A stretch of 63,620 nucleotides of DNA, filler included, from Rhabdomonas costata (taxonomy: Eukaryota): the NCBI GenBank assembly GCA_019059605.1. It is 43 parts of 43 records of this genome, joined end to end, with 100 filler letters (N's around TTAATTAATTAA, not from the genome) between each part and the next. Parts side by side here need not be neighbours in the genome. Positions count along the whole stretch, not along the records: positions 34,091 to 35,472 come from JAHMHO010017609.1; positions 35,573 to 36,954 come from JAHMHO010017610.1; 41 more parts are not named here. The stretch is one strand, 5' to 3'. The first letter of the stretch is position 1. Each line of letters begins with the position of its first letter. Of the stretch, positions 4,057 to 53,352 are shown one piece after another. A program made the position numbers and the translations under genes. The notes under the pieces were generated by a model that worked only from the letters and a program-made list of their open reading frames with translations, had not been told where the DNA came from and did not search any database.

Positions 4057-4763
4057 CTGTTACGGTAATCAAAAAATCGGGGATTAGCGATACGTGGGAT
4101 TCAAGGTAATATGGGGATTGGGGGGCGGGGCGGACGGTGAGCACAGGTCACAGCCGTAGCGAATGGCAACACTAGTATCGTTAAAAACATTGTTGCAAAC
4201 ACAAGCAAGGCTTTACCGAAACAATTGAATGGCTCAGTTCAAAACAGAGTGAAGAGTCCAAAGATCTATGCAATGTGAAGATTTGATTCGCATCAATCCT
4301 CTCTTTCCCCCAACACCCACCAGATGCCAAAGCCCAACACACCCAACANNNNNNNNNNNNNNNNNNNNNNNNNNNNNNNNNNNNNNNNNNNNTTAATTAA
4401 TTAANNNNNNNNNNNNNNNNNNNNNNNNNNNNNNNNNNNNNNNNNNNNGGGGGTAAGATCAGAGGGTGTGATTGGAGCCAAGAATTTGTCTCGTGATAAA
4501 TGATAAGTGGTTGGTTGGTGGTTCATTTGCAGGGTTGATTATTTACATAAGGGAATGTTATGATTCACCATGCGGTGCGCCTCTCTGCGATTTCTGTCTT
4601 CTGGTGTGCGCGCATGAGTGGAACGAAAATGAAACCACCACAAGCTCTGCAATTCCATTTTCACGTGTTATGAAGACAGTCACTAAGTACCGCACATGCG
4701 TCTACACTGCAGCATCGCCGCGTCAGCAGCAGGACTTTGGTGCTTTGCGGGTTGGGGGCTCAG

Positions 4764-4956
4764 GGAGCGTTCCGGCCGCAGACAGCTATCGTGGTGGACC
4801 TCAGCCACACCTCCCCCAGCGACAGCTCCCCAGGCAACTATCTCTCTCTGCGGCGCAACCGCACCCGGAAGCCTTGGGCGGTGGCGCAGCTGCTGGAGAT
4901 GATTGTGGAGGCCGCGCGCAAGCTCAACGTCCGACCCGCGAAGATCGCCACCACAG
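4764..4956 (+). CDS. Single internal exon of a hypothetical protein (GAFRPQTAIVVDLSH...KIATT)
   Basis: GC-rich open block between ctcag| and |GTGGCC. Confidence 0.5.
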
Positions 4957-6338
4957 GTGGCCTTTTAGTCATGCGCGCAGCTCTATTGCGTTTTGCACTC
5001 ATATCCCAGAAAAACTCTTGTTTTGCACTCGTTGTCTTTTACCGCTGCTGTGCAACTCCCGAGAAGTGAAAAGAGAATATCCGCTTGAGGTTTTGTTTCC
5101 TTTGTTTTTCTTTCAAGCTCTCAACTAATCATACTCAATACTATTCTTATATTTTCTCTCGATCAACTAAGATTGCAAGTGCAACTGCAGTATTGGCACC
5201 CTATTCCATCTGTCAGTGTTGCGTTCAAGAACCCCATAATGACATACTTAATTCCTTTGAAAACCCGCCAGAAATCTTCCTTTATAAGTTTCTCTTACCG
5301 TCACACCACCCACCACTGCAAGCCTTGAGTTCTGTGTATTAAGCTGAATCGGGCGGTTTGCTTTGTATTCTTCGTTTAGATTACCAGCTTTTCCTCGAAC
5401 TTCTCCCTCATCTGACCGCGGCGGGCATCCAGTGCACCAACAAGCCCACTTCTGGTGTTTTGTGCGGAAAGAATGGAAAGAAGAGGAAGAATTCTCGACA
5501 AACCGTGAGAAATGTGCGAGGCGCTGTTTGTCAAAGACACTCTTAATAGTGCTGGCATTTCCGGTTCGGGTGACTGGAAAAAAGAAACATACACTGCCTT
5601 CAGCGGGCAAAGTGTGCAGAAACTAATTAAATTAAGATCCCGTTGTGTCGTTGGAATCTGCATGGTGCCAGTTTTGTTGCTGACGTGTTTTAACCTTGTT
5701 GGCCTATTGCTGTCGGGTTTCACTATTGTTGTTTTTTTCGTTTGGGAACCGCCACAGGGTTGCTTCCCGTGACCCACCTGATCAACAATAGTGAAACCCG
5801 ACAGCAATAGGCCAACAAGGTTAAAAAACANNNNNNNNNNNNNNNNNNNNNNNNNNNNNNNNNNNNNNNNNNNNTTAATTAATTAANNNNNNNNNNNNNN
5901 NNNNNNNNNNNNNNNNNNNNNNNNNNNNNNATGTGGGTAGTGGAGGTGTTTTCATGACTTCATGGTCACGCGCACCAAAAACAACACATCTGCAGGGGTT
6001 CCTACAAGTCAAGTTTCGTACCTCAATTTCTAACATCTTAAAACTGTTTACAGCAGTGCCTCAAAATTAGGAGACTTCCACCCAACAAATACGAGACTTC
6101 AGAGAGCGGCTTTCTCTTCTGTTTCAGTCAGTTTGAGTTAATTTCCGGGCGCGCTTGTAACAACGCCAAATCCCATAACGCTGTTAAACCTTTCAGCACG
6201 GCCTGCTAGAATTGCTTCGATCTCGGCTCAACACCTGTCCGTTTAACCGCCCTCTCCGATAAAGTGTCGCCAACCTTGAGAGAAAAAAAAGAACGCATAC
6301 AGATGGAGAGAGGAAGAAGGTGGAGAGCAGGGGCCAAC

Positions 6339-6930: not shown

Positions 6931-7579
6931 CTATGTACGGTGGGGAATCGCCAGAAGCAGCGCGCCGAGTGTTTAGGAACCGTGAAGACGGCATTGCAAT
7001 TGTTTCTCTGCAACAAAATAATACAAGAGACCACTCAGTTATAGGGGGAGAGGCATGAGAAGAGGGTGCACGAAGGGGTAAGACAGGGAAGGAAGAGTGA
7101 AAGAACCAGAGCAGGAGGGGAACGAACGAGGGAGAGGAAGAACGCGCGCGGGAAGAAAAAGACGGAGGGAGAATAAAGGAGAGAGAGAAGAGAAAGAGGA
7201 AGAGGGAGCGAGCGACGGTAATAACGAAGAAACGAAGAAACCAGACAAAAGTTGCCGAGGATGCAGTTGAAACAAACTGCTACTCCATAAGGCATTCGCA
7301 ATCAGACACAACNNNNNNNNNNNNNNNNNNNNNNNNNNNNNNNNNNNNNNNNNNNNTTAATTAATTAANNNNNNNNNNNNNNNNNNNNNNNNNNNNNNNN
7401 NNNNNNNNNNNNTGTGCTGGCACACTCAATCAACAAAAACGTGAATGCACCCCCCCCTCCCAAATAAGCTTCTATATCTACATCTTCTATGATAATATTC
7501 CCACTACTCTTTGGCCATTCCGATCCCTTTTCCTTCGCTTCGCCCCTTCCTTTTCCCTTCAAAGTGTCCACGGGCGACC

Positions 7580-8592
7580 TTGAGCAAGGCGGCAACAAAC
7601 ATCTTGACGAAGGGCAGCACAGCGAGGAACGGGGAATGCAAGAAGGGCAGCAGCACAACCACCAACTTGTCAAAAATGCCCTCAGTTGCCTGTTTTTTTT
7701 GCAAGGAAGAGAGGAGATAAAAAGAAAAGAAAAAAAAGAAAAGAAAATAAAAGAAAAGAAAAGAAAAGAAAAGAGAAAGAGAAATGAAAAAAGGCACCCG
7801 CTGCCCCAGGCAGAAGTCCCCAGGAGCGCAAGCTTCAACGCTTTCCTGCCGCAAAACTTCACCGCTTTCCCGCCAATTGAAAAGAACCTCCCCCCAATCG
7901 CAGCAGTGAAGTTAAAGAGCAAGCATGGACAGAAGACATAGAAACAATACATCCGAAGAACATGATGACAAAACTCTAAATCTGATCACAATAATGATCA
8001 CGATGCTTTTCAGTTGACTGTTGTGGACTACCTGAGAGGGGAGCCTGGGAGTTTTCAAAATGTCTGCGAAATGGCCAATTTGTGATGCGGACGACCCCGT
8101 GACTGAGGCGGCGTACCCAACAACCAGACTTATGCGGCGGTGACAGAGGCACTGAGGATGAAGAAAAGAAGGAATGCAATCACAGGGGACACCTCCCGCA
8201 AGTTTTTGACATGGTCCACGAGGGTAAGCACTCGAAGAAGCCCACAGAGCAAGCCGGCTTCCTCGTTGCCAGGCATCTCCCCGCTGGAGCACCCAGAGGA
8301 AGTTCGAACGGCACGAGGGGTGGGGCACGCCAGCGAAAAGGTGCCTGAAGGCAAGGTTCAGAATCCAGCAGCGCAGAATCCCTCTGAATGACTCACCACC
8401 AGAGCAAGCTGCACGGAACCGCAAAAACTCAGGCAGCGTGAATGGGAGAGAATATGCGAAGAAGAATAAAAGAAAGAGGATATAGGGGAGGGGGAGGGTA
8501 CACACTGCCCTTGTGTGATTCGCTGAGCTGACGAAGCGCCTCGCCGCTGTCCTGCAGGAGTTTCAGCACGACCTGGGGGTCGACCCATGCCT
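7580..8592 (-). CDS. Hypothetical helical protein, four short exons
   Basis: Exon-like blocks AWVDPQVVLKLLQDSGEALRQL, GLLCGLLRVLTLVDHVKNLRE, ESVEACAPGDFCLGQR and ATEGIFDKLVVVLLPFLH... with AG/GT ends. Confidence 0.45.
7715..7792 (+). repeat. (AAAAG)n-like purine microsatellite (intronic)
   Basis: Directly visible. Confidence 0.85.
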
Positions 8593-9018
8593 CTGATAGT
8601 GAGGAAATTCGGAGAAATGTTATTTGATTGGCCATGATAATAAAGCGTTACAACCCAGAAGAAAGGGAATAGGGCGCAACGACATGAATCAAACCGCGCA
8701 ACTGTAGACCTGACTCAACATTGACATCGAAAAGGGGGACAAATTTGACGACATTTAGGCCTAGGGCCCAAAAACACCAAACACACCCACCACNNNNNNN
8801 NNNNNNNNNNNNNNNNNNNNNNNNNNNNNNNNNNNNNTTAATTAATTAANNNNNNNNNNNNNNNNNNNNNNNNNNNNNNNNNNNNNNNNNNNNGTTGGTG
8901 TGGATTTTCGAATGTGGTCAGTCATCGTGTAAATGGAGTAAATGGAGTGTTGGTTGATTAGAACTGTATTCAAGGATGGTGTCAGTTTTCTTGATCAACA
9001 ATTGGATGGAAATTGGAT

Positions 9019-10250
9019 GCGATGCTCGAGCTGCCGCCGGAAAGCCGGCCGCTGTTGAGTGGTCCACCGATTCCACAAGAGCTCATGCTCCCGAAGCTCC
9101 GCGCAGCTGCAGCGTGGGTGGCACAACTGCTTGCAGTGCGCACAGAAGCCTCTCTGGCAGTTCGGGCACTGAACAGGCCGCCCTCGGGGGGCACCAGCAG
9201 GCTGCAGGGGCTCCGGAATCTCAAGAATCATGGTGCAACCAGGACAGAGAAAGTAGTTCGGCGAATTTCCCAGCACAGACGCGGTCAGTAGCTTGGCAAA
9301 AGTGGCCTGGTGTGCCTCCGGAAGCTGGCTCCAGCAGCCCACGTAGTCTTCATAGCGCAAGGTGTACCGTGAGGCCTGACCCTGGGCAGTGATGGGGCAT
9401 ATCGGGCAATATAGCGCTGCCACGCTGCCGCTGTCGACGAGGTCGAGGAAGCGGCCGAAGCATTCCGCGCAAAGGCTGTGGCTGTGGGGGCAGTGCACGG
9501 ACACAAGCGGCTCTTCGCAGAGGTCCCCGCAGGTGGGACACATACTTCGCAGCTTTGTCTCTACCACCGGCGGTGCTACCCCGGCGGCCTCGTTCGGGCA
9601 TTGAGGAGCATCAGCAGGAACAGCAGGAACAGCCCATCGGGCAGGAGGTTGTAACCGGACTTGCAGCTATGATTTAAAACATTTCGACAATCAAAGCATA
9701 CACTTGACGAAGGAAAAGCAAGACAACGGTTGCCATTTCCCACTGAATGAATACCAGAAAAGGGAAAGATAGGGGGAGGGGGCATCAGGATTCGAGTCCA
9801 AAACTCGGTGCACCAAAATATAAATCGCAGCCCACCATGACCATTTTCAGCCACACACCGTGATTCGGGATTTAACCTCCCCACCCCCCCGCCGCAAAAT
9901 AAAAACTTAAAACCCCGGGAAAGGACGAGACATCCCACCATTACCACCACCTTGCAAACCTTCCGAAAACGCTCCTGGATATCAGCGATCTGCTGGTACA
10001 ACCCCTGGGTGGTTCCAGAGTCCGCGAAGGAAGTGGAAGCGCTGCGCGAGGCTGAGCGGCCATCTGACGTGCTGGAACCCTGTGAAGGGTCCTCGGCCGC
10101 CCTACCTCCACCCCGAGCAGATGCAGACGCGACAGCGGGGGGCTTCTCGGGCCCAGACAGCGAGAAGGTGAGGGTCACCTCCTCGAAGGAAGCACGGGGT
10201 TGCGGAGAGGAAGGGCGCGCGGCACCATCCCCATCATGGGCAGCACTCAT
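9019..10250 (-). CDS. RBR (RING-IBR) E3 ubiquitin ligase, 5' part (exons ~10250-9952 and ~9666-9019)
   Basis: RING1 CPTC...CPHSHSLCAEC...CPIC, followed by IBR CPGC...VQCPNCQRGFCAHCKQLCHPRCSC. Confidence 0.85.
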
Positions 10251-14208: not shown

Positions 14209-15277
14209 GTCGGTTTTGGAGCTTTGAGAGGAACTCGTTGGGAACATCAACACGTTAGCATACATCGCTCTAATGAGCTCAACTGGAAAACCCACTGGAT
14301 ATCAGGACAGGGGGTCTGTGCGGCAGTACTTCAATCGGAGATCGGAGTACAGGTGGTTGGGAGCTGGATCCAACCTGGAATTGGAGGGGACATCGCCAGT
14401 AACTCAGCCAAAATGTTGTGCTGGTAAAATCCGCCAAAAGGGGATCGTCTGCCTAACTCCGCGTCGAGCCTAACGCTATTCACGTGTACTGAAACAAGCC
14501 TGGCCACGAAACCGAATTACCGGGACAACCTCGTTGATTTGTGACCTTCCTGACGGTTCCTTTTAGCGCAACCGGACTCTCAGCGCCCAAAATCGCGCGT
14601 GGGGAAGAGGCCCCTCTCCCCAATGCAAACCCCCCGACCACCCACAGCCCACTGATCGTGGCCGCACTGCTGTGGTAAAACCGGGGCCCAAACCCCGCGC
14701 TGCCTGTGGCCTGGCACCAACNNNNNNNNNNNNNNNNNNNNNNNNNNNNNNNNNNNNNNNNNNNNTTAATTAATTAANNNNNNNNNNNNNNNNNNNNNNN
14801 NNNNNNNNNNNNNNNNNNNNNTGTGTTTGCATACAATATGTTTAAACGTTTTCACTATCGTGAAAACGTTTAAACATATTGTATGCATACACACCAGCCT
14901 AGCGGCAATTTATAGCGTTCCCAGGACTTCAATTGGAAACTCGTAACATACTAAATTCTGAGTTTCGGGATGTAACTTACCTTATGTAATGCAGGCAAAC
15001 ACCAGGAGTGTGGTGGCAAGGTGCGCGGAGACAAACGTCATATCGAGGGATGGTGTCAAACACAATTTGCAAGCCGATATATCACGATCACGTCGAGCAT
15101 CGGCTTGGAATCATCAAGGAGATAAAACTGCACTATTTCACTGCTGTTCCCCACAACTCTCCACCTCCCTTTGGTGGCAGTGCTGCCGCGATACCATGAT
15201 CCTTACTCACGGACTGACTGACAACTGAAGTTTCCAAAGGAAACAAAATCCAGGGAAGTCTTCGGATTCCAATCACC

Positions 15278-15845
15278 TCGAGGTGGAGTTGACGTGTTAC
15301 GAGCTGCCTTTTGATGTCCTTCAAGGCCTCAGTCTCCTGGAAGGCGCGGGCCAGCTGAGCCTCCAGGTCCTTGGTGTGCTCCTTCTGGACATTCAGCTCT
15401 TGAGTGAGCTTCCCAATCTGCAGGGCAAAACACCCCATTGCCGCAATGTACTAACACAAACGGGGACAACAGCTTTTGCCTCACCTGTTGAGTTGAGAGA
15501 ACCAAAAGTGTTCGTTGCGAGTGCATGCCAGGAAACCCATCTCATGCGGACAATCGCGAGGATTATGGATTATGGATTATGATTCCGTTGCGGTGACGAC
15601 AAAGAGCTTCAGAAAAGGGACAGGACAAAAGCTCAAGAATCTGGGTAAAGGCACCCAGCAACCGAACATTTACGATTGTATCAGGGGTCTCGAAACCAGA
15701 AGCTAAGTGCCACGTTTGCACAAAATCGGCAGAAAACGGGGGCATCTAACGAGGCAGCGCCTGGACAGCCTACCTCGGTACGGATCCGCTGCTCCGTCTT
15801 CACCACCATCTTCCACGAAGCAAAGCACTTCTCCTTGTAAACGTC
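15278..15845 (-). CDS. Coiled-coil protein, two exons
   Basis: DVYKEKCFASWKMVVKTEQRIRTE|IGKLTQELNVQKEHTKDLEAQLARAFQETEALKDIKRQL with GT-AG ends. Confidence 0.6.
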
Positions 15846-17787
15846 CTGCCCACAAATACACAACAAAGAACAGGCCCCTGCTATTGAGGCCCTGTCAATA
15901 CAGCGAGTTGTTGTATGCGCGGTGTCACACAGTTTTGACAGGTTTACGATCGGGAGCGAAAACACACGCGGGAACCAACTCGGCGTGGATGTGGGGCTGG
16001 CTCGCGTTATAGAATCGAAAGCAACGTATCCAAGCAGTTGCGATTCGAACCTACCCACAACCGCCGAAACGCCAGCTCTGGGTTCCTAGCGTAAACAATC
16101 AAAACATTCCAAACATTCCATTGGAAGAATGGCAAGAGTTCCAAAATTTCCGAAAGGTAACCTTGACCGACATCTAGAGCTTCGACCCTTAACAACCCCC
16201 CCNNNNNNNNNNNNNNNNNNNNNNNNNNNNNNNNNNNNNNNNNNNNTTAATTAATTAANNNNNNNNNNNNNNNNNNNNNNNNNNNNNNNNNNNNNNNNNN
16301 NNCTATCTGTGGACGTGTGAGGTACGGTGAGGGTATGCGTATAGGAGGACTGATGGCTGTGAAGGTGGACGCACTGGAAGGGTATCGTGAGAATCTGAGC
16401 GTATGCAGGACACGTATGTAGCATCAAGCGGTGTGCTGAGTCTCATGCGGATAGAGGCGAGTCACTTCAGCAACCCCTCCGTAGGGCTATGCACCCGTGA
16501 CCTCTATCGCTCGTTCATTGCGTGAGGGTAACACTTACGGTGGCTACACTAGTATCTCGCGTAGTGGGTTGGGGATTTGTCAGTACCCAGCAATCCGACT
16601 GTGGTAGAAGTAGCGAGCTATCACAGAGGCAGCACGTCACCTGAGGAGTGGTACGTTGACATGGCCAGCAGACCGGTAGAACCGTGGAGTATGCGTATAC
16701 GTAGCCTTCACATAGTATACTTAAGGTTGGTCGGTGTAACGTTGCCATACGTGGGGTAGAGCTGAGGTTGTAACCGTACCGTAGTGTATGGCTATGCGAT
16801 CATCAGCCCCACACCAAAGGCATCCAAGCGTTGGGTAACAGGCCACCACTGGTGAGTACGGAATCCCAACCGAGGGGTAAAGCGAACCTACGTGCAGTAA
16901 GATCCTGACAACCTACTACGGTACGAGATGCCATGATGCAGGAGGAATGTCGATGCCACCATGCCACCACTCCACTCCACAGCAGGGATGTCGGAGCTAC
17001 GGTGTTAGCAACGTGTACATACGCCACATGTCCTACCCATCGTTGAGCCATCCTCGCGTAGGAACCACCGGGTCAGAGTGGAAAGGGTGACGTAGGCGTA
17101 CGACATCAGTGAGAGTCTAACCCTGCGTAATGGTGGTCGCCACAACCGATACCGACCCACCCAACTCAACCTAATCAACCCATCCAGCGTGATAGGAAGA
17201 GGCAAGAGGGAGCGTAAGAGTGAAGGCTGAAGGGATGAAGGCATAAAGGTGTAGGCATCCTAAGGCTACGCGTAACCCAGCATCAGCGTAAAGGCCCCGC
17301 AGGGACAGAACCGCGATGCCAAGCTGAGGACATGACACCTATGCATCCACCAACCCTACACCCAACATCCATCCTTCCACCCTACGCCTCAACCACCGAC
17401 TCAACCCTCCACGCAACCTCAATGCCAACATCCCACCACTGACCTTACGCACACAGAAGATGCCAACCACCCACTCCAACGCAAGGATGAATGCCAGGTT
17501 GCATGCCAGGATGAATGCCAAGAGGAATGCCAACCCTACTTCCACGCACAGAGGATGGATGATGCCGTGCCCAGATGCCTAGACCCATGCCAGAATGCCT
17601 AAACCCAACCTGAGGGTAAGCGTAAGGGATGAGTTCTGCGTGGCTTCGCCAAGGACGGACCGACACGTAGCGCCTTATGGCGTGGAGNNNNNNNNNNNNN
17701 NNNNNNNNNNNNNNNNNNNNNNNNNNNNNNNTTAATTAATTAANNNNNNNNNNNNNNNNNNNNNNNNNNNNNNNNNNNNNNNNNNNN

Positions 17788-34165: not shown

Positions 34166-35573
34166 TTTCTGGCCGTGGGTACAATTCTAAAGTAATGCCG
34201 ATTATGCTTCCATGCGGTCGTAAGAACGTTGAGGGAGAGAAATTGTCTTATGATTGAAAGCGTTTGCATCTTGGTTGTGGTTGACATGGTGTTGGAATGG
34301 GAGCAGCGTGATTTGGCTGAGGTACAAATGGTGTAAATTCCTACGCAGAGAAACCACCGTGTTAGAGGGGGTTGGGTCCATGTAATGTGGATAGTGGTGG
34401 GGTAACGCAGCAGTCAGTCCCAACGTAGTGGGGCGCATGCGGATTATGTGCTTGGAATGACCACATTACTCCTCAGCTACCACCCCCACACTCATTGGCC
34501 TTTCCATCTTTCTTTGCGGGCACCTGCGGTATTATTCCAGCCATGTCTTGCGGCTCAGAACCACCCCAAATTCTCAACTCAGTAGATAGTAGGGTAGTAG
34601 TGAAGAGCGCAATGACGAGCGACCAATACATTACGAACGGAATGTCGAGCGTAGCGGGGAATGAAGTAAGAGCGTTACGACGAGGTCCTCTTCTACAATA
34701 TTACTCTCATCTTCATCTTCTTTGGGTCACATAGCTACTCTCAGTGTCCACAATTTTCCAACCAACTCAAGAAGAGGGAGAGAGTCGAGAGAGCGGTAAT
34801 CTTAGAGGATGTACTGAAATTTCCCTTGGTCACCACATTTTACCTCTGTCACCCTATGCACGTGGTTGAATGGAGTGAAGAACGTGGATGAGTAGACATA
34901 GCGTCATTGCACCATACCCAGCGTACCACTGTCACTACCATCACCATTGACACCATCATCTCATGCGCAGGTGTGTTTATCTTGAGCAGTGGATGCAGCA
35001 TTTCTACCACTACAGATCAGCACCACACTCATCACTACCACTACCACGAGTCTAACACTACTACATTTATTGGCTGGTGTTGGAAGTGGCAACCATGGCA
35101 GTGGGATACGCAAATGGTTGATGCACCATCGTTGTACTCACTTCTGACACAGCTACCGCTACCGGTAACCAGTCACCTCAACACTGCGGTACGTGTATGA
35201 CTTCCGGTCACCATCTACCACATGAACTCATCAACTGTGCCTATCGTGTGTGTTGAATTGATTTATTGCCAACTACAATGAGTTTCGATCACTGTATGTC
35301 AACCTTGGTTAACCTACCAAGCACTACTACCACATGCATAACTTGGGTTCATGTCCACCAGCAGAGTTCATGCTACCTTGGCCAACCTTTGGCTTGGTTC
35401 CATAACTGTGTAACTCAGGTGTTGAGTTACGCGCTACGTTGCATACCCCCACCGTCACCGTCACAACAAACCNNNNNNNNNNNNNNNNNNNNNNNNNNNN
35501 NNNNNNNNNNNNNNNNTTAATTAATTAANNNNNNNNNNNNNNNNNNNNNNNNNNNNNNNNNNNNNNNNNNNNG

Positions 35574-35792
35574 GGTGGGGGTATATCTTTTTATACAAAT
35601 GAATATAACCGTGATGGATCTAATGTTATCATATCTCGTAGTGGAATATCGGAAACATGTGTAAGAATAGTACACGGTAAATTTTGGTTAAATGATAGTG
35701 GATTTACAGTTCATATAAAAGAGAATTTAAATATCAATTTATTATATGTTGGATATTTTTGTGAATGTATTCAAGATTTAATAGTTGATTGA
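35574..35792 (+). pseudogene. hsdS: Type I restriction-modification specificity subunit TRD fragment A (not in ORF track)
   Basis: Manual translation GGGISFYTNEYNRDGSNVIISRSGISETCVRIVHGKFWLNDSGFTV...LLYVGYF...IQDLIVD*. Homologous to fragment B and truncated before the GSAQ motif. Confidence 0.7.
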
Positions 35793-36015
35793 CTTGATAC
35801 AATAATTGAAAGTAATAAATAGTAAAAAAATATAAGTAATAAATAATAAAAATAATCAATGAATATACTAAAATAATGAAATATTACATTTACACAAGTA
35901 CTACATTATATTTACCTAAATTAACCGTTATATACGGTATTTGGTAACGTTAACCGTTATATAAATTATATAAATTATATAAATATTACATTATTACACA
36001 AGTACATTACATTTA

Positions 36016-36410
36016 CAAAAAATTAAAATTGGAACTATTTGTGAAACCAAAAGTGGAGAATATGTTAAAGAATATATTCCTGGTGAATATCCTGTATATG
36101 GTGGTGGTGATGTATCAAATTATATAAATAAAAAAATAGATGTAATTCATTAGTCATTGCCAAAGATGGTGTATCTAAAAAATGTATTAGATGTATTGAT
36201 GGTGATTTTTTTCTCAATCATCACGGTTGGACATTAGAACATAAGAATAATACACTTGATAAATACGTATATTATTGGTTATGGAGCAATCAAGATAAAT
36301 TGTATAATCTAGCCTATGGATCTGCTCAGAAAGGAATAAATAGAATATCGTTTTATAATTTAGACATTCATTTACCTCCATTGGAAAAACAAAAAGAAAT
36401 AATATCCTGA
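36016..36410 (+). pseudogene. hsdS: Type I restriction-modification specificity subunit TRD fragment B, 1-nt frameshift in the A7 run at 36130-36136 (not in ORF track)
   Basis: KIKIGTICETKSG...GEYPVYGGG...(fs)...LVIAKDG...DKYVYYWL...GSAQKGIN...IHLPPLEKQKEII, the classic Methylase_S TRD plus the conserved LPPLEEQ helix. Confidence 0.88.
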
Positions 36411-36671
36411 TGGAAGAAATTTCATATCATATGCTAATTTGAACATTTCAACAGGATGTTCTTCAATTTTATTAATATCAATTTTGGTCTCAAGTATATC
36501 ATAAATTCCAGTAACTACACGTTTTATTGTATCATACCATGTTTCATTTGTTCCATCGTCTTTAATTCTGGAATATGTACGTTCATATACGAACATACCG
36601 AGACCATTGAATCCAAAATTTGGGATCTTGTTTTTGTAGTTTGTATTATCGATTAACATTTGAATATCCAT
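36404..36671 (-). pseudogene. nrdJ: Class II (adenosylcobalamin-dependent, monomeric-type) ribonucleotide reductase, N-terminal ~90 aa only
   Basis: PNFGFNGLGMFVYERTYSRIKDDGTNETWYDTIKRVVTG...MKFLPSG. Similarity stops where PxGRGLW is expected. AT-rich codons, no introns. Confidence 0.82.
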
Positions 36672-37054
36672 TGTATTAATAAAATATATTTTTTTATTAT
36701 GTATTATATATATGTATATTATGTATATATAATAATATAAATATGTATATAAATATAATATTAATTATAATAATTATTAAGTATAATATTATATATTTTT
36801 AGATAACCATTGGCACCAACCATATGGATCTAAAAATATATAATATTATACTTAATAATTATTATAATTAATATTATATTTATATACATATTTATATTAT
36901 TATATATACATAATATACATATATATAATACATAATAAAAAAAATATATTTTATNNNNNNNNNNNNNNNNNNNNNNNNNNNNNNNNNNNNNNNNNNNNTT
37001 AATTAATTAANNNNNNNNNNNNNNNNNNNNNNNNNNNNNNNNNNNNNNNNNNNN

Positions 37055-48676: not shown

Positions 48677-50732
48677 CTATGAGGGGAGAAGCCACACCAA
48701 TAAGCATTAAGCAAGACCATCATGCCTGCCTTGGCCACGACAAGACAGCAGACAGCTTGCGACAAATTGCCACCCACCACCCGATACCTCCAAAAACGTA
48801 TCTCCAACACAAANNNNNNNNNNNNNNNNNNNNNNNNNNNNNNNNNNNNNNNNNNNNTTAATTAATTAANNNNNNNNNNNNNNNNNNNNNNNNNNNNNNN
48901 NNNNNNNNNNNNNGGTGGGTTGTCTAGCGATGGGGTGAGGGCGATGGTAATCCCGTTTGGCAACAGTAACCGCAATTAAAACGGTTATTCTCTGAGATTT
49001 GCTTCCTGAGACACCGCGGTGAGAATGCATCATGATTTCGGAGGAGGCGCGGGTTGCTGAAAGATTCACTCGATCAAGGATACCTTTGTATCGACGTGAC
49101 ATACGGTCCAGACGACCGAATAACTGCTTCCGGTACACAGGGTGGCCAAGAACAGGTATTGATCTCGCAAGGAGACGATACATGTGCGGGGGATTATGGC
49201 AGCTCCTCTTCCAAACTTCCCCTCATTCTCACTGGGGAAGCGATTCTGTTCGCTCAGCGTTGTCTGGCTCGATACTGTATTGCCAATTACGTTTACCACC
49301 GCCCCCTCGTTCCAAACGGCTTTTCATCAGCGGCTGCTATTGAGCAAGTGAATTCCTCCCCAGGCGCATCATTGCCAATGATATTGTTGTGCACACCTCA
49401 TCCCAGGCTCTGCAGCGAGCGTGGCCAGCATGACCTCCAGGTCGGCATCCAGGGTGATGTCGTCGGAGCCCTCCAGGAGAGACAGCGGAGGTGGACTCGC
49501 GCGTGGAGTTCCCGAGGTCTGTCATACCCACGTCACAAGCACAAATATCTGATTCAATGAAACAAGCACTCAGCACACCATACTCAGCAGCACCCATCTA
49601 AACTTGGTAGCCTGGTATCTGGCCTCCTGCGCACCACTCCGGAAGTGAGTGAACGAGGGAGTAGAGGGTAGGATACAACGTCCCTCAAAAGCTTCATCTT
49701 GTTCGCTGGGTGACTTCCAAAGTGGCCCCCCCCGCCACATCCGGATCTGATGGGATCTTTTTTCGGCCATCATTGTTGCAAAAGCCTAGACGAGATTTAA
49801 GGCCCGCCCTTTTCGCAAAAAAAATTGCCATCATTTTTTTCTTTCAATTTTTCAAATGCAAAAAAAGACAGGCCCTGCGTGATTTTTCCACTGAAATGGA
49901 AGAAGTATGGCTATCGCAGTACGGTGTACTACGTCCTGCACTGTGCTCGAGAAACTGTTCCAGGCAACAGGCAGCAACCGATTTCTATGTCCACCACCGT
50001 GATGTCTAGACTTCGGTGATTTGGAATGGTTTTCGTGATTATTACCAGTCATCACGATGCTTTAAACATACAATGGAACGAGCGCAAAGCTTCTCTTCTT
50101 GCGCAAACCTTCTGCAGGACGGTCCCCTCAGCACTTGGGGAATCTCCCCAGCTTGGGGGCCCTGCCGGTCGCGCAGGAGGGGTGCTCGCCCGAGTCCTTT
50201 CCACAGGGCTGGCCCGGTCCCTCGTCTGGATGTCCTTGGGCACAGCGTCGGGTACCATGCCGGGGGGCGGAACCCGACGCTGTGCCCAACAAACNNNNNN
50301 NNNNNNNNNNNNNNNNNNNNNNNNNNNNNNNNNNNNNNTTAATTAATTAANNNNNNNNNNNNNNNNNNNNNNNNNNNNNNNNNNNNNNNNNNNNCATCCC
50401 CAAGAAGAGACTTTGTTCGCTGAGGTTGCGCCGGTTGAATCCGATGGTTCCATTTCAGTATGCCAGCTGAGGACCTAGGCTCGGTTTTCTTGTTGTTCTT
50501 TCTCCTTTCTATCCCTCTTCTTTCCTCATTACTCGTTATGGGTTTCGTGCGGGTCTTAAAATGTCCAAGGGGAGATTAGCGTTGGTGTCGTCGCCTGCAA
50601 GAACCGGAGATCCAGTGGTCATGCGGAGTCTAGCGGTCGTATCGATTAACTTTTTCTCCTTGCCAATGCTGCCAGAAGCAGCTTCTCGTGTCACTCAGTG
50701 TTTTCAAGTTTGGGTGTCTCTACCTTCCCCAG

Positions 50733-51680: not shown

Positions 51681-52005
51681 GTATGTGCCAAGCTTGTCTC
51701 ACTACTGGTAGGTTGGTTTGAGGCTTAAGGGAAGGTCCTCCTCTCTCTCTCTCTTCTCACCTTGCCCCAACCCCCNNNNNNNNNNNNNNNNNNNNNNNNN
51801 NNNNNNNNNNNNNNNNNNNTTAATTAATTAANNNNNNNNNNNNNNNNNNNNNNNNNNNNNNNNNNNNNNNNNNNNTTTTTTGGGTGTAGCATTTATTTTC
51901 TGAGTGCATCTTCTGTTTGATTGCCACCCATTTCTAACTTCGGTGTGTTTGATGGCGAGGAACTAAGCTACTCTGAGTGTGGGTGGCGGGAAGCCCGCCT
52001 TCGCG

Positions 52006-52645
52006 ATGAGCATCATTGATGCCGCGAGGTACGGCAACCTGCCAAAGATCAAGCAGCTCATCCAGACTGGTCCGCGTGTGCGTCGGTTGCGGTGTAAAAT
52101 CGGCCCCATATCACGCAAACGCGTACGAAACCGCTCCCTCTCTCCCTCCAAGACTTCAATAGAAGAATTTGTAGATTGTCCCTTCCGGGGACTCTTTTCA
52201 GTGCATTGCATTGGTCATGGGTCTGTAGTGAGTCTGCACGGGGCTTCGATGAGCTACTAGTCCCGGATGGCATTTAGCAAGCCGCAGATTAACACAATGT
52301 CATTTGCTTTGTGAGAAGGTAGTGAGTCGTCATGAATACATGAATACGGGGGGCATCGCCGCTGTCTTTGCGTTAAATCCCATGTGAGGAAATGCACTTT
52401 ACTTTCACTGCATGGAAGTCATGATTGGGGTTTGTGGTTTTTGTGTTTCCTTAATTGTCTAAAATTTTCCATTTCCTTTGAGTATGGCAAGTGTTTTTGC
52501 AAGGTGCTGTCTTTGAATCTATTGTACCTCCCTGAAGCCTTGTTTGTATGGGTTCAGGTACGGACGTCAACAAGGAGGATGTGGACGGGAAGACTGCGCT
52601 ACATTGGGCGGCCCTGAGCGGGGACCTGAAGATCGCGGAGTTCCT
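52006..52645 (+). CDS. Ankyrin-repeat protein N-terminus, exons 52006-52069 and 52558-52645
   Basis: MSIIDAARYGNLPKIKQLIQT|GTDVNKEDVDGKTALHWAALSGDLKIAEFL. Confidence 0.9.
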
Positions 52646-52810
52646 GTTTGTCTCCAGTGTGTGACTCGCGCAGATCCCCCCCTCCCCCCCAGTGGAAGCC
52701 TCTGATAGAAGTCTTTTTTAGAAAGACAGAAAGCGAATGCTTGGTTTCGTGGTGGGACATATTTAGCTGTATGGGCGGTGCGCGTTTTAGGCACCCAAGC
52801 TGAGCTTAAG

Positions 52811-52884
52811 CGTATAGCATATATATGCTATATATATAGCATAGCGTATAGCATATAGCATATATAGCATATATATAGCATATA
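52811..52884 (+). repeat. (TA)n-GCA variable microsatellite, partly self-complementary
   Basis: tatagca/tatatagca units directly visible. Confidence 0.85.
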
Positions 52885-53352
52885 CAAGCGTATGGTGAAA
52901 AGGAAAAGACGACTGAGCACAGTATCCGGACTCTCAAGCACGGGGAAAAGGCTGTCAACCCAATAATTCTTTCAGAACTTACAGAAATCCAACAGCCGCA
53001 CAGGGTCCCGCCTGCCAAGGGCGTACAAGGGAGCGTACAAGATTTGTAAGAGCACAGGCATTGGCGAGAAAGAGGGCTGTACCGAAGCAGCCCTGGGGTC
53101 TTTTGCATATACAGCAGGCCTCCCTGCGTGGCCGGGCAGAATTTCCTCACCCTCGGCCGGTGACGATGACAATGGGCTGTTTCGTAGCCCTTTTTTTCTT
53201 GCCACACGTGCTGTGGGTTTACGACAGTACCCACAACTTAGCAAAAAAACANNNNNNNNNNNNNNNNNNNNNNNNNNNNNNNNNNNNNNNNNNNNTTAAT
53301 TAATTAANNNNNNNNNNNNNNNNNNNNNNNNNNNNNNNNNNNNNNNNNNNNT

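What the first reader, a model, noticed from the sequence alone, without database searches (positions are those of the whole stretch)
35573..36954. AT-rich foreign contig: candidate giant-virus-derived (or endosymbiont) island in a euglenid assembly
Seen: roughly 20% GC by eye against ~50% elsewhere, no introns, nearly pure-AT intergenic DNA, and fragments of two gene types: type I RM specificity domains and a class II ribonucleotide reductase. Known: AT-rich Nucleocytoviricota (Mimiviridae/Klosneuvirinae, including Bodo saltans virus, which infects a euglenozoan) carry RM and nucleotide-metabolism genes, and decayed endogenous giant-virus DNA occurs in protists. Inference: truncation and a frameshift suggest a degrading endogenous viral element, or amplified DNA of a virus infecting this euglenid. 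No viral hallmark gene is present here.
Basis: partly seen in the sequence, partly recalled or inferred. Interest (0 to 1): 0.78.

Follow-up and report, generated by a model that had tools for sequence, protein, structure and literature searches.

The report
Eroded giant-virus-like DNA scrap
A stand-alone 1.4-kb, very AT-rich contig holds the broken remains of two genes, a DNA-methylase/specificity gene of a kind common in giant viruses and a vitamin-B12-dependent ribonucleotide reductase, so it is most likely a decayed scrap of giant-virus DNA, a kind of thing already reported in Euglena.

Summary
35573-36954 is one whole contig bounded by N spacers. Its GC is 22.1%, against 47.7-60.6% for the other 42 contigs of the window (z = -9). 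It carries remnants of two genes, not three. (1) The 3' half of a fused N6-adenine methylase/specificity (M-S) gene of a type I-like restriction-modification module. Both target-recognition domains are collinear with one 807-aa metagenome protein at 53-64% identity. The gene is disabled by a ~34-codon loss, an in-frame TGA, further stops, a ~110-nt insertion/duplication, a frame change in an A-run and a 3' truncation. (2) The first 89 codons of a monomeric class II (RTPR-like) ribonucleotide reductase on the other strand, abutting the M-S remnant. The contig ends in a 126/127-nt fold-back. Of 79 IMG/VR loci carrying the M-S family, 46 have giant-virus MAG names. Some relatives sit beside Rpb1 or VLTF3, and one sits beside a class II RNR. 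Bacterial plasmids give only about 24-41% identity. Giant-virus origin is therefore likely (about 0.6), and erosion is shown. Integration, viral order and host identity could not be tested. Eroded giant-virus insertions in Euglena gracilis were published in 2025, so this is at most a new member of a known kind.

The parts
35573..36954 (.). Whole free-standing contig, GC 0.221, bounded by N spacers on both sides
35574..35762 (+). Remnant of target-recognition domain 1 (TRD1) of a fused methylase-specificity (M-S) gene. It is open at the contig start, and the methylase half would lie off the contig.
   Evidence: 59% identity to P0006 residues 457-519; family profile i-E 2.3e-17
35763..35792 (+). 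Site of an in-frame loss of about 34 codons (P0006 520-553, including the conserved G.QK...IPIPSL stretch). It is followed by a remnant of the central helix that ends in an in-frame TGA (35790-35792).
   Evidence: alignment
35793..36009 (+). Decayed central region, GC 0.17. It holds TAG/TAA stops and a frame change in an A/T run. A weak remnant of the central conserved region lies at 35849-35902 in another frame. There is an insertion/partial duplication of about 110-120 nt containing TTAACCGTTATATA twice (35921-35934, 35950-35963).
   Evidence: D9, D10; E 0.87, not significant on its own; P0278 586-604, E 0.002
36010..36135 (+). TRD2, first part (frame 3)
   Evidence: family profile nodes 595-638, i-E 3.7e-15; 53% identity to P0006 593-637
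36130..36136 (+). Homopolymer run of 7 A in which the reading frame changes between the two TRD2 parts
36132..36404 (+). TRD2, second part (frame 2), ending at the start of the C-terminal conserved helix (...LPPLEKQKEII). The last ~75 codons of the gene are missing.
   Evidence: Pfam Methylase_S 1.1e-11; profile i-E 2.2e-49; 64-73% identity to metagenome proteins
36405..36671 (-). First 89 codons (Met 36671 to Gly 36405-36407) of a monomeric class II, RTPR-like ribonucleotide reductase. It is cut after ...FLPSG, where relatives continue with R.
   Evidence: Pfam RNR_Alpha 1.3e-20; 63% identity to P0001; P0001 scores 330 bits on NCBIfam RTPR
36679..36804 (.). Left arm (126 nt) of the terminal fold-back. 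It starts 8 nt upstream of the RNR start codon.
   Evidence: (I1, I11)
36805..36827 (.). 23-nt centre of the fold-back, richer in G+C than the arms
36828..36954 (.). Right arm (127 nt). It is the reverse complement of the left arm except for one extra base in a homopolymer. It ends exactly at the contig end.

Best explanation
The contig is a small piece of eroded DNA from a very AT-rich giant virus (Nucleocytoviricota). It carries two dead genes. One is the specificity half of a fused methylase-specificity (M-S) gene of a type I-like restriction-modification module. In intact relatives this gene sits next to a gene for a nuclease-plus-SF2-helicase R protein. The other is the 5' end of a B12-dependent, RTPR-like ribonucleotide reductase gene. 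Shown: the gene identities, collinearity with one full-length relative, the list of lesions, and the giant-virus context of relatives. Inferred: (a) the two genes were once a convergent neighbouring pair, and one deletion of about 2 kb removed the 3' end of the M-S gene, the spacer and most of the RNR gene; (b) the decay is recent, because 293 conserved codons are still free of stops in 22% GC DNA; (c) nothing on the contig is functional now. In intact relatives the inferred mechanism is as follows. The two recognition domains read a bipartite DNA target, the fused gamma-class methylase marks adenine in the virus's own DNA, and the neighbouring nuclease-helicase cuts unmarked DNA. Whether this scrap lies inside the host genome, as in the published Euglena gracilis elements, or comes from co-sequenced virus DNA cannot be told from the contig.
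For: GC is 0.221 against 0.477-0.606 in the 42 other contigs. Both recognition-domain pieces have the same best hit, the 807-aa protein P0006, at its TRD1 and TRD2 positions and in the right order and spacing. Of the 120 proteins listed for the TRD2 piece, most are 740-950 aa with N6_Mtase plus Methylase_S (348 proteins with E<=0.001 among 395 candidates). An IMG/VR scan with a 16-sequence family alignment found 88 relatives and kept 79 loci. Of these, 46 bear GVMAG names (that this label means giant-virus MAG is recalled). The best IMG/VR match of the window's TRD2 (L064, 58% identity) lies about 2 kb from a 1576-aa Rpb1-type RNA polymerase subunit. Among 101 neighbouring ORFs of 15 such loci, Pfam found ResIII helicase in 10, and Pox_VLTF3, DNA_pol_B and MutS_V once each. 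The nearest ESM-Atlas clusters of P0015 are 98-100% viral, commonest Nucleocytoviricota. A GVMAG contig (L046) has a class II RNR directly beside the M-S gene and its helicase partner. Two more GVMAG contigs carry class II RNRs (L006, L096). The closest JGI relative (L167, 69% identity in TRD2) lies on a contig of 22.5% GC, next to an Mrr_cat_2 + ResIII gene. Bacterial plasmids give at most about 28% identity for the full-length relative among the 15 of 2218 matching records listed, with M and S as separate genes in 13 of them. For the TRD2 piece they give a single 40.7% hit over 53 aa. All 5 of 5 Trp codons are TGG, so nothing points to a TGA=Trp (mollicute-like) code. Cultured giant viruses with an adenine methylase fused to one or two specificity domains are in print (PMC13196603, passages read). 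So are eroded 25-37% GC giant-virus insertions in a 51% GC Euglena gracilis genome (PMC12455990, abstract and Results part 1 read).
Against: There is no hallmark gene on the contig and no host junction. The closest relatives of both genes are unnamed metagenome proteins. IMG/VR holds only viral contigs, so hits there cannot show that bacteria lack the family. The Atlas also lists bacterial M-S fusion clusters with nearly the same score (0.97-0.98). The scan of bacterial and archaeal genomes failed. The RNR's nearest Atlas clusters are Uroviricota, i.e. tailed phages. Only 1 of 7 and 1 of 80 IMG/VR RNR loci are GVMAG. Only 1 of 79 M-S loci has a class II RNR within the 10-kb flanks, and it is in a different orientation from the window. 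The published Euglena elements are Asfuvirales at 25-37% GC. The passages read name neither a type I-like module nor an RNR ('restriction' and 'ribonucleotide reductase' occur 0 times in the main text; supplements were closed). The junction and the fold-back could be artefacts.
Confidence: 0.6

Rival explanations
1. The DNA comes from an AT-rich bacterium (endosymbiont, epibiont or contaminant) or from a tailed phage, not from a giant virus. Type I-like modules and RTPR are prokaryotic inventions, and reduced endosymbiont genomes are AT-rich and full of pseudogenes.
For: The RNR's nearest Atlas clusters are Uroviricota. 1213 phage records carry a relative of P0001, and 562 IMG/VR stretches do, nearly all without a GVMAG name. 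Bacterial M-S fusion clusters score 0.97-0.98 in the Atlas. Solved relatives are all bacterial type I M and S subunits. The heavy pseudogenisation fits a decaying symbiont.
Against: Cultured-phage RNRs are at most 36.5% identical to the closest full-length relative. Plasmid-borne M/S genes are at most about 28% identical among the 15 records listed, with 0 of 2218 records covering 80% of the fusion. The TRD2 type has 1 weak hit in 72,556 plasmids. The closest labelled relatives of the M-S gene sit beside eukaryote-type RNA polymerase, VLTF3, a Ser/Thr kinase and the like. 5 of 5 Trp codons are TGG. There are no tRNA, rRNA or other Rfam hits.
Confidence: 0.15
2. The source is AT-rich viral DNA, but the odd architecture is an artefact of amplification, sequencing or assembly, not biology. 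That covers the abrupt junction of two truncated genes, the terminal fold-back and the homopolymer frameshift. The 'degrading element' is then overstated.
For: The contig ends exactly at the outer end of the second arm. Three of the 42 other, host-like contigs also begin or end in a fold-back (4449-5830, 14822-16202, 48914-50294), so the assembler breaks at, or creates, such structures. The only difference between the arms and the TRD2 frame change are both homopolymer-length differences. A third such difference occurs in the fold-back of contig 4449-5830. The junction joins two reading frames in opposite orientation with at most a few shared bases.
Against: The ~34-codon in-frame loss, the in-frame TGA at a conserved helix position, the extra stops and the ~110-nt insertion/duplication are not typical miscalls. 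Both halves have the same extreme composition. A single deletion in a convergent gene pair explains the junction without a chimera. A giant-virus contig with RNR and M-S genes as neighbours exists.
Confidence: 0.15
3. The contig comes from an AT-rich eukaryotic contaminant. Dictyostelid-like amoebae have about 22% GC genomes and a class II RNR (recalled, not tested). Such a genome may itself contain virus-derived genes.
For: The composition pattern fits such genomes: coding about 27% GC, non-coding 8-17% GC. RTPR-type enzymes occur in a few eukaryotes (recalled).
Against: No hit to the RNR fragment carries an NCBI or UniRef source or a name; the 5 hits come from ENA, Logan and JGI only. The M-S family's labelled relatives are viral. 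Neither gene remnant shows an intron.
Confidence: 0.05

Closest known systems
Fused adenine-methylase/specificity genes of giant viruses (e.g. the ChlorV-3 gene with one methylase domain and two specificity domains, PMC13196603)
   Same: Relatives of the window's gene show the same architecture: N6_Mtase followed by two Methylase_S recognition domains in one 750-950 aa protein, on giant-virus contigs.
   Different: The window holds only the two recognition domains, and they are broken. The methylase half is off the contig.
Classical type I restriction-modification systems (EcoKI HsdM/HsdS/HsdR; PDB 2y7c, 2ar0)
   Same: A gamma-class N6-adenine methylase and an S subunit with two recognition domains separated by conserved helices. 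The full-length relative P0006 hits EcoKI M (4.2e-21) and EcoKI S (1.2e-8). A nuclease plus SF2 helicase gene lies next door in relatives.
   Different: M and S are one polypeptide. The partner is a 730-800 aa protein with an Mrr_cat_2 or T5orf172 N-terminus plus ResIII/Helicase_C, shorter than HsdR. Identity to bacterial plasmid genes is only about 24-28%. TRD2 is unusually conserved across the family.
Adenosylcobalamin-dependent ribonucleoside-triphosphate reductase (RTPR, NCBIfam TIGR02505; monomeric class II RNR)
   Same: The N-terminal RNR_Alpha domain is present. The closest full-length relative, P0001, scores 330 bits on the RTPR model.
   Different: That score is just under the curated cut-off of 340. 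Only 89 of about 650 codons are present, so there is no insertion domain, barrel or active site. The window shares with P0001, P0002, P0127, P0128 and P0130 a shorter N-terminal region (78-aa against 85-aa alignments) that sets them apart from the IMG/VR phage-like RNRs.
Giant endogenous viral elements of Euglena gracilis (Jivaji et al., J Virol 2025, PMC12455990)
   Same: AT-rich viral DNA (25-37% GC) in a ~51% GC genome, with signs of erosion by duplications and insertions. One outlier element has 25% GC.
   Different: Those are 86-311 kb regions with hallmark genes, assigned to Asfuvirales. Here there is a 1.4-kb contig at 22% GC with no hallmark gene and no junction. Neither identity with any of those regions nor the host species was tested.

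Membership tests
Type I R-M specificity domain (Pfam PF01420 Methylase_S) | Match to the family model above the curated cut-off | tested here: met
   36132-36407: 45.7 bits against cut-off 22, E 1.1e-11. The left fragment has no Pfam hit, but it matches the family profile built here at 2.3e-17.
Fused M-S protein family (N6_Mtase + two TRDs) found on giant-virus contigs | Two recognition domains in the order and spacing of a full-length member | tested here: met
   Fragment A matches P0006 457-519. Fragments B1 and B2 match P0006 593-637 and 639-730.
Fused M-S protein family (N6_Mtase + two TRDs) found on giant-virus contigs | N6-adenine methylase domain on the same reading frame | not testable with these tools
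   The contig starts inside TRD1. The rest of the assembly is not held.
Fused M-S protein family (N6_Mtase + two TRDs) found on giant-virus contigs | Uninterrupted reading frame with both conserved helical regions | tested here: not met
   There is a ~34-codon loss, an in-frame TGA, further stops, frame changes, an insertion and a 3' truncation. It is a pseudogene, not a working member.
Class II ribonucleotide reductase, RTPR type | N-terminal RNR_Alpha domain | tested here: met
   74.2 bits against cut-off 26.4.
Class II ribonucleotide reductase, RTPR type | B12-dependent insertion domain and catalytic ten-stranded barrel | tested here: not met
   The frame ends after codon 89 at the junction 36404/36405. 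Relatives continue for about 560 more residues.
Nucleocytoviricota genome fragment | Hallmark genes (major capsid protein, PolB, A32 ATPase, VLTF3, RNA polymerase subunits) on the same sequence | tested here: not met
   The contig holds only the two remnants. Hallmarks were found only next to relatives in other contigs.
Nucleocytoviricota genome fragment | Genes nest within giant-virus clades rather than bacterial, phage or eukaryotic ones | tested here: inconclusive
   M-S gene: labelled relatives are giant-virus contigs, and plasmid homologues are far more distant. RNR: the nearest labelled clusters are tailed phages. No labelled tree was built, and the bacterial genome scan failed.
Giant endogenous viral element (GEVE) | Physical junction between viral and host DNA on one molecule | not testable with these tools
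   The contig is viral-like from end to end. Reads and the assembly were unavailable.
Giant endogenous viral element (GEVE) | Composition contrast with the host and signs of erosion | tested here: met
   z = -9.0 in GC; at least five disabling lesions.

The most novel reading that the evidence does not exclude
The contig is a trace of a second, extremely AT-rich giant-virus lineage associated with this protist. This lineage would be distinct from the Asfuvirales elements published for Euglena gracilis, would carry a type I-like R/M-S module and a B12-dependent RTPR, and would have been acquired or active recently. The conserved codons are still stop-free and the base composition has not drifted towards the host's. 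The terminal fold-back would then be a real palindromic junction or hairpin end of a linear viral genome, not an assembly artefact.
Probability: 0.15. Interest if true: 0.55.

Novelty: new member of a known kind. Interest (0 to 1): 0.3.

Why it matters
If the host really is a euglenid, this scrap adds a little to the record of past contact between giant viruses and Euglenozoa. It suggests that a type I-like restriction-modification module and a B12-dependent reductase were part of the viral cargo. That is mildly interesting, because Euglena itself depends on B12 and uses a class II reductase (recalled). On its own, a 1.4-kb contig without a hallmark gene or host junction settles nothing. The side observation may be worth more than the contig: a conserved gene pair on many giant-virus contigs, made of a fused M-S methylase and a nuclease-helicase partner.

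Tried and rejected
1. Whole-assembly binning and a hallmark search were impossible, because no genome is held for this window.
4. The bacterial/archaeal genome scan with the family alignment got no answer three times. Plasmid tblastn served as a partial substitute.
5. A search of the full records behind five IMG/VR loci for the capsid family failed because the records are not held.
6. An IMG/VR scan with the window's own TRD2 peptides found 10 pattern matches and no relative. A JGI metagenome scan with P0001 found 84 pattern matches and no relative. No near-identical virus is therefore in those collections.
7. TGA=Trp or another code was rejected. 5 of 5 Trp codons are TGG, and the other stops are TAG/TAA.
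8. The reading that the left fragment is a second copy of TRD2 from a tandem paralogue, which the profile alignment suggested, was rejected. P0006, P0277, P0278, P0279 and P0280 all place it at their TRD1 with 56-60% identity.
9. An independent TRD2 gene was rejected, because there is no Met codon in its frame between the preceding stop and the frame change.
10. Host identity could not be established. There are no tRNA or Rfam hits in the window, and 0 Pfam families in the 7 longest open frames of other contigs that were scanned, out of 10 frames of 230 aa or more.
11. A nucleotide search of phage genomes gave one trivial 110-nt AT-rich match.
12. Literature searches for class II RNR in giant viruses returned nothing on topic, judged from the listings alone. 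This does not show that none is in print.
13. No labelled phylogeny was built, because bacterial and eukaryotic sequences with names were not obtainable.
Full report
WHAT IS THERE. The window is not one stretch of genome. It is 43 contigs of 1376-1385 nt joined by N/TTAATTAATTAA spacers. The finding is one complete contig, 35573-36954. Its GC is 0.221. The other 42 contigs have mean 0.523, sd 0.033 and range 0.477-0.606, so it lies 9 standard deviations below them. No other contig in the window is AT-rich. The window has no tRNA and no Rfam match. Of the 10 open frames of 230 aa or more on other contigs, I scanned 7, and none has a Pfam family. I could therefore not confirm that the assembly is a euglenid.

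ANATOMY. On the plus strand the contig opens inside a reading frame. 35574-35762 is 59% identical to residues 457-519 of P0006, an 807-aa metagenome protein with N6_Mtase and Methylase_S domains. 36004-36132 matches P0006 593-637 (53%), and 36135-36404 matches P0006 639-730 (64%). P0006 is the best hit of both pieces when they are searched separately (5.2e-47; 7.8e-28). The two 'specificity fragments' are therefore the first and second target-recognition domains of a single fused methylase-specificity (M-S) gene, in the right order and roughly the right spacing. A profile built from 16 family members supports the pieces at 2.3e-17, 3.7e-15 and 2.2e-49. Pfam calls Methylase_S on the last piece.

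Between and within the pieces the gene is broken:
- About 34 codons (P0006 520-553, including the conserved G.QK...IPIPSL stretch) are missing in frame after 35762.
- The central helix remnant carries an in-frame TGA at 35790-35792.
- TAG and TAA stops and a frame change follow in an A/T run.
- A short remnant of the next conserved stretch survives in another frame at 35849-35902. It is weak: E 0.87 against the profile and 0.002 against P0278.
- An insertion or partial duplication of about 110-120 nt follows. It contains TTAACCGTTATATA twice.
- The frame changes once more inside a run of seven A (36130-36136).
- The gene stops at 36404, at the start of its C-terminal helix, about 75 codons short.
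- The methylase half would lie beyond the left end of the contig.

On the minus strand, 36671-36405 encodes the first 89 residues of a class II ribonucleotide reductase. The evidence is Pfam RNR_Alpha at 1.3e-20 and 63% identity to P0001, a 649-aa protein that scores 330 bits on NCBIfam RTPR, cut-off 340. The frame is cut after ...FLPSG, where all relatives read on with R. The two truncated genes meet tail to tail at 36404/36405.

Upstream of the reductase start codon the DNA is 8.5% GC. It forms a fold-back with arms 36679-36804 and 36828-36954 around a 23-nt centre. The arms are identical except for one base in a homopolymer, and the contig ends exactly at the outer end of the second arm.

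IS THE DECAY REAL? The frame change in the A-run may be a length miscall. The only difference between the fold-back arms is also a homopolymer length, and another contig's fold-back shows the same kind of difference. The codon loss, the TGA at a conserved helix position, the extra stops and the insertion are not of that kind. The gene is dead either way. There is also no Met codon from which the second recognition domain could be expressed on its own. At the same time, the 293 conserved codons contain no stop at all, which is unlikely in 22% GC DNA after long neutral drift. The damage therefore looks recent and is mostly made of insertions and deletions. One deletion of about 2 kb in a convergent pair (M-S gene pointing right, reductase pointing left) would produce the observed junction. 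This is inference.

WHERE DOES IT COME FROM? The M-S family is large. There are 348 proteins with E<=0.001 among 395 candidates, and most of the 120 listed are 740-950 aa with both domains. No names or accessions could be had for ten of them. A scan of IMG/VR with the family alignment found 88 relatives, of which 79 distinct loci were kept. 46 of these 79 have GVMAG names, which I recall to mean giant-virus metagenome-assembled genomes. IMG/VR holds only viral contigs, so I checked the neighbourhoods:
- Among 101 ORFs of 200-1000 aa from 15 of these 79 loci, Pfam found N6_Mtase and Methylase_S in 14 each, and a ResIII helicase in 10. Pox_VLTF3, DNA_pol_B, MutS_V and thymidylate synthase each appeared once, among others.
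- L064, the best IMG/VR match to the window's TRD2 (58%), has a 1576-aa Rpb1-type RNA polymerase subunit about 2 kb from its M-S gene. L061 has a Ser/Thr kinase and thymidylate synthase.
- The ESM-Atlas clusters nearest to P0015 (73% identical to the window's TRD2) are 98-100% viral, commonest Nucleocytoviricota. Bacterial M-S fusion clusters follow closely in score.
- Bacterial plasmids give much less. With P0015, 0 of 2218 matching records cover 80% of the protein. The 15 best listed are 23.5-28.2% identical, and 13 of them carry M and S as separate genes. With the window's TRD2 there is a single hit, 40.7% over 53 aa.
- The closest JGI relative (P0012, 69% in TRD2) lies on a contig of 22.5% GC, the same composition as the window's contig. 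Its upstream neighbour combines Mrr_cat_2, ResIII and Helicase_C, and its other neighbours have no clear Pfam family.

The reductase is less decisive. Its closest relatives are five metagenome proteins of 50-63% identity. The window shares with P0001, P0002, P0127, P0128 and P0130 a shorter N-terminal region. P0001 is only 40-43% identical to every IMG/VR reductase fetched. It is at most 36.5% identical to those of cultured phages. Its nearest Atlas clusters are Uroviricota. Of the IMG/VR reductase loci, 1 of 7 and 1 of 80 have GVMAG names. Three giant-virus-labelled contigs nevertheless carry class II reductases. In one of them (L046), the reductase lies directly beside the M-S gene and its helicase partner, though in tandem rather than convergent orientation. 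That reductase has ATP-cone, RNR_Alpha and class II insertion domains and an intein. This is 1 of 79 M-S loci. Both halves of the window's contig have the same extreme composition. All five Trp codons are TGG, which argues against a mollicute-type code.

VERDICT ON ORIGIN. A giant-virus source is the best reading, at about 0.6. A bacterial or phage source (0.15) cannot be excluded, because the scan of bacterial genomes failed. An AT-rich eukaryotic contaminant is unlikely (0.05). The junction and fold-back may be artefacts (0.15). Three of the 42 other contigs also start or end in a fold-back, so this assembler stops at, or makes, such structures.

HOW IT WORKS. Nothing on the contig can work now. 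In intact relatives the module looks like a compact type I system. One protein carries a gamma-class adenine methylase and both recognition domains; P0006 matches EcoKI M at 4.2e-21 and EcoKI S at 1.2e-8. Next to it lies a 730-800 aa protein with an N-terminal nuclease-like domain (Mrr_cat_2, or T5orf172) followed by an SF2 helicase. By analogy with type I enzymes, the M-S protein would mark the virus's own DNA at a bipartite site and the partner would cut unmarked DNA. This is inferred, not shown.

COMPARISON WITH WHAT IS KNOWN. The following are in print:
- Giant viruses with an adenine methylase fused to one or two specificity domains (PMC13196603, passages read).
- Restriction-modification systems as common cargo of giant-virus genomic islands (PMC13620141, passages read).
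- Eight eroded giant endogenous viral elements of 25-37% GC in the 51% GC genome of Euglena gracilis, assigned to Asfuvirales (PMC12455990, abstract and first part of Results read).

The main text of the Euglena paper does not contain 'restriction' or 'ribonucleotide reductase'. Its supplements, which list the gene annotations, were closed and may bear on whether this very gene pair is already catalogued. Two searches found no paper on class II reductases in giant viruses, judged by listings only.

SCORES. The finding is at most a new member of a known kind, and a very small one: 1.4 kb, no hallmark gene, no junction. Interest 0.3.

Noticed in passing
L037:7486-12529, L046:9815-14573, L064:9803-14549, L167:7528-12484, L168:1038-6339: On giant-virus-labelled and related contigs, the fused M-S methylase gene is paired with a 730-800 aa gene that has an N-terminal nuclease-like domain (Mrr_cat_2 in L167/L168, T5orf172/MUG113 in L064) plus ResIII/Helicase_C. 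ResIII was found in 10 of 101 neighbouring ORFs from 15 loci. This looks like a conserved, compact type I-like R + M-S module of giant viruses.
   Followed up: partly
L046:5692-8931 and L006:5866-8874: Class II ribonucleotide reductases on giant-virus MAG contigs carry inteins or homing-endonuclease domains: Intein_splicing/PT-HINT in L046 and LAGLIDADG_3 in L006. The L046 enzyme also has an N-terminal ATP-cone.
   Followed up: no
window 4449-5830 (end), 14822-16202 (start), 48914-50294 (end): Three host-like (~50% GC) contigs begin or end in a fold-back inverted repeat whose outer arm coincides with, or lies within a few bases of, the contig end. The arms are about 47, 34 and 18 nt. In the first, the arms differ in a homopolymer length. 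This points to a property of the assembler or library rather than of the AT-rich contig alone.
   Followed up: partly
window 35921-35963: Inside the decayed centre of the M-S pseudogene lies a short, relatively GC-rich insert with TTAACCGTTATATA repeated twice, 29 nt apart, around near-palindromic GGTAACGTTAACC. It could be a tiny mobile or hairpin element.
   Followed up: no
L167:7528-9910: In the closest JGI relative, the nuclease-helicase partner gene is split into two ORFs in different frames (7528-8943 and 9005-9910). The module may also be decaying there, or the contig has an indel error.
   Followed up: no
window 51876-53251 (52806-52891): There is an imperfect tandem/palindromic repeat built of GCATATATA/TAGCATA-like units in a host-like contig.
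   Followed up: no
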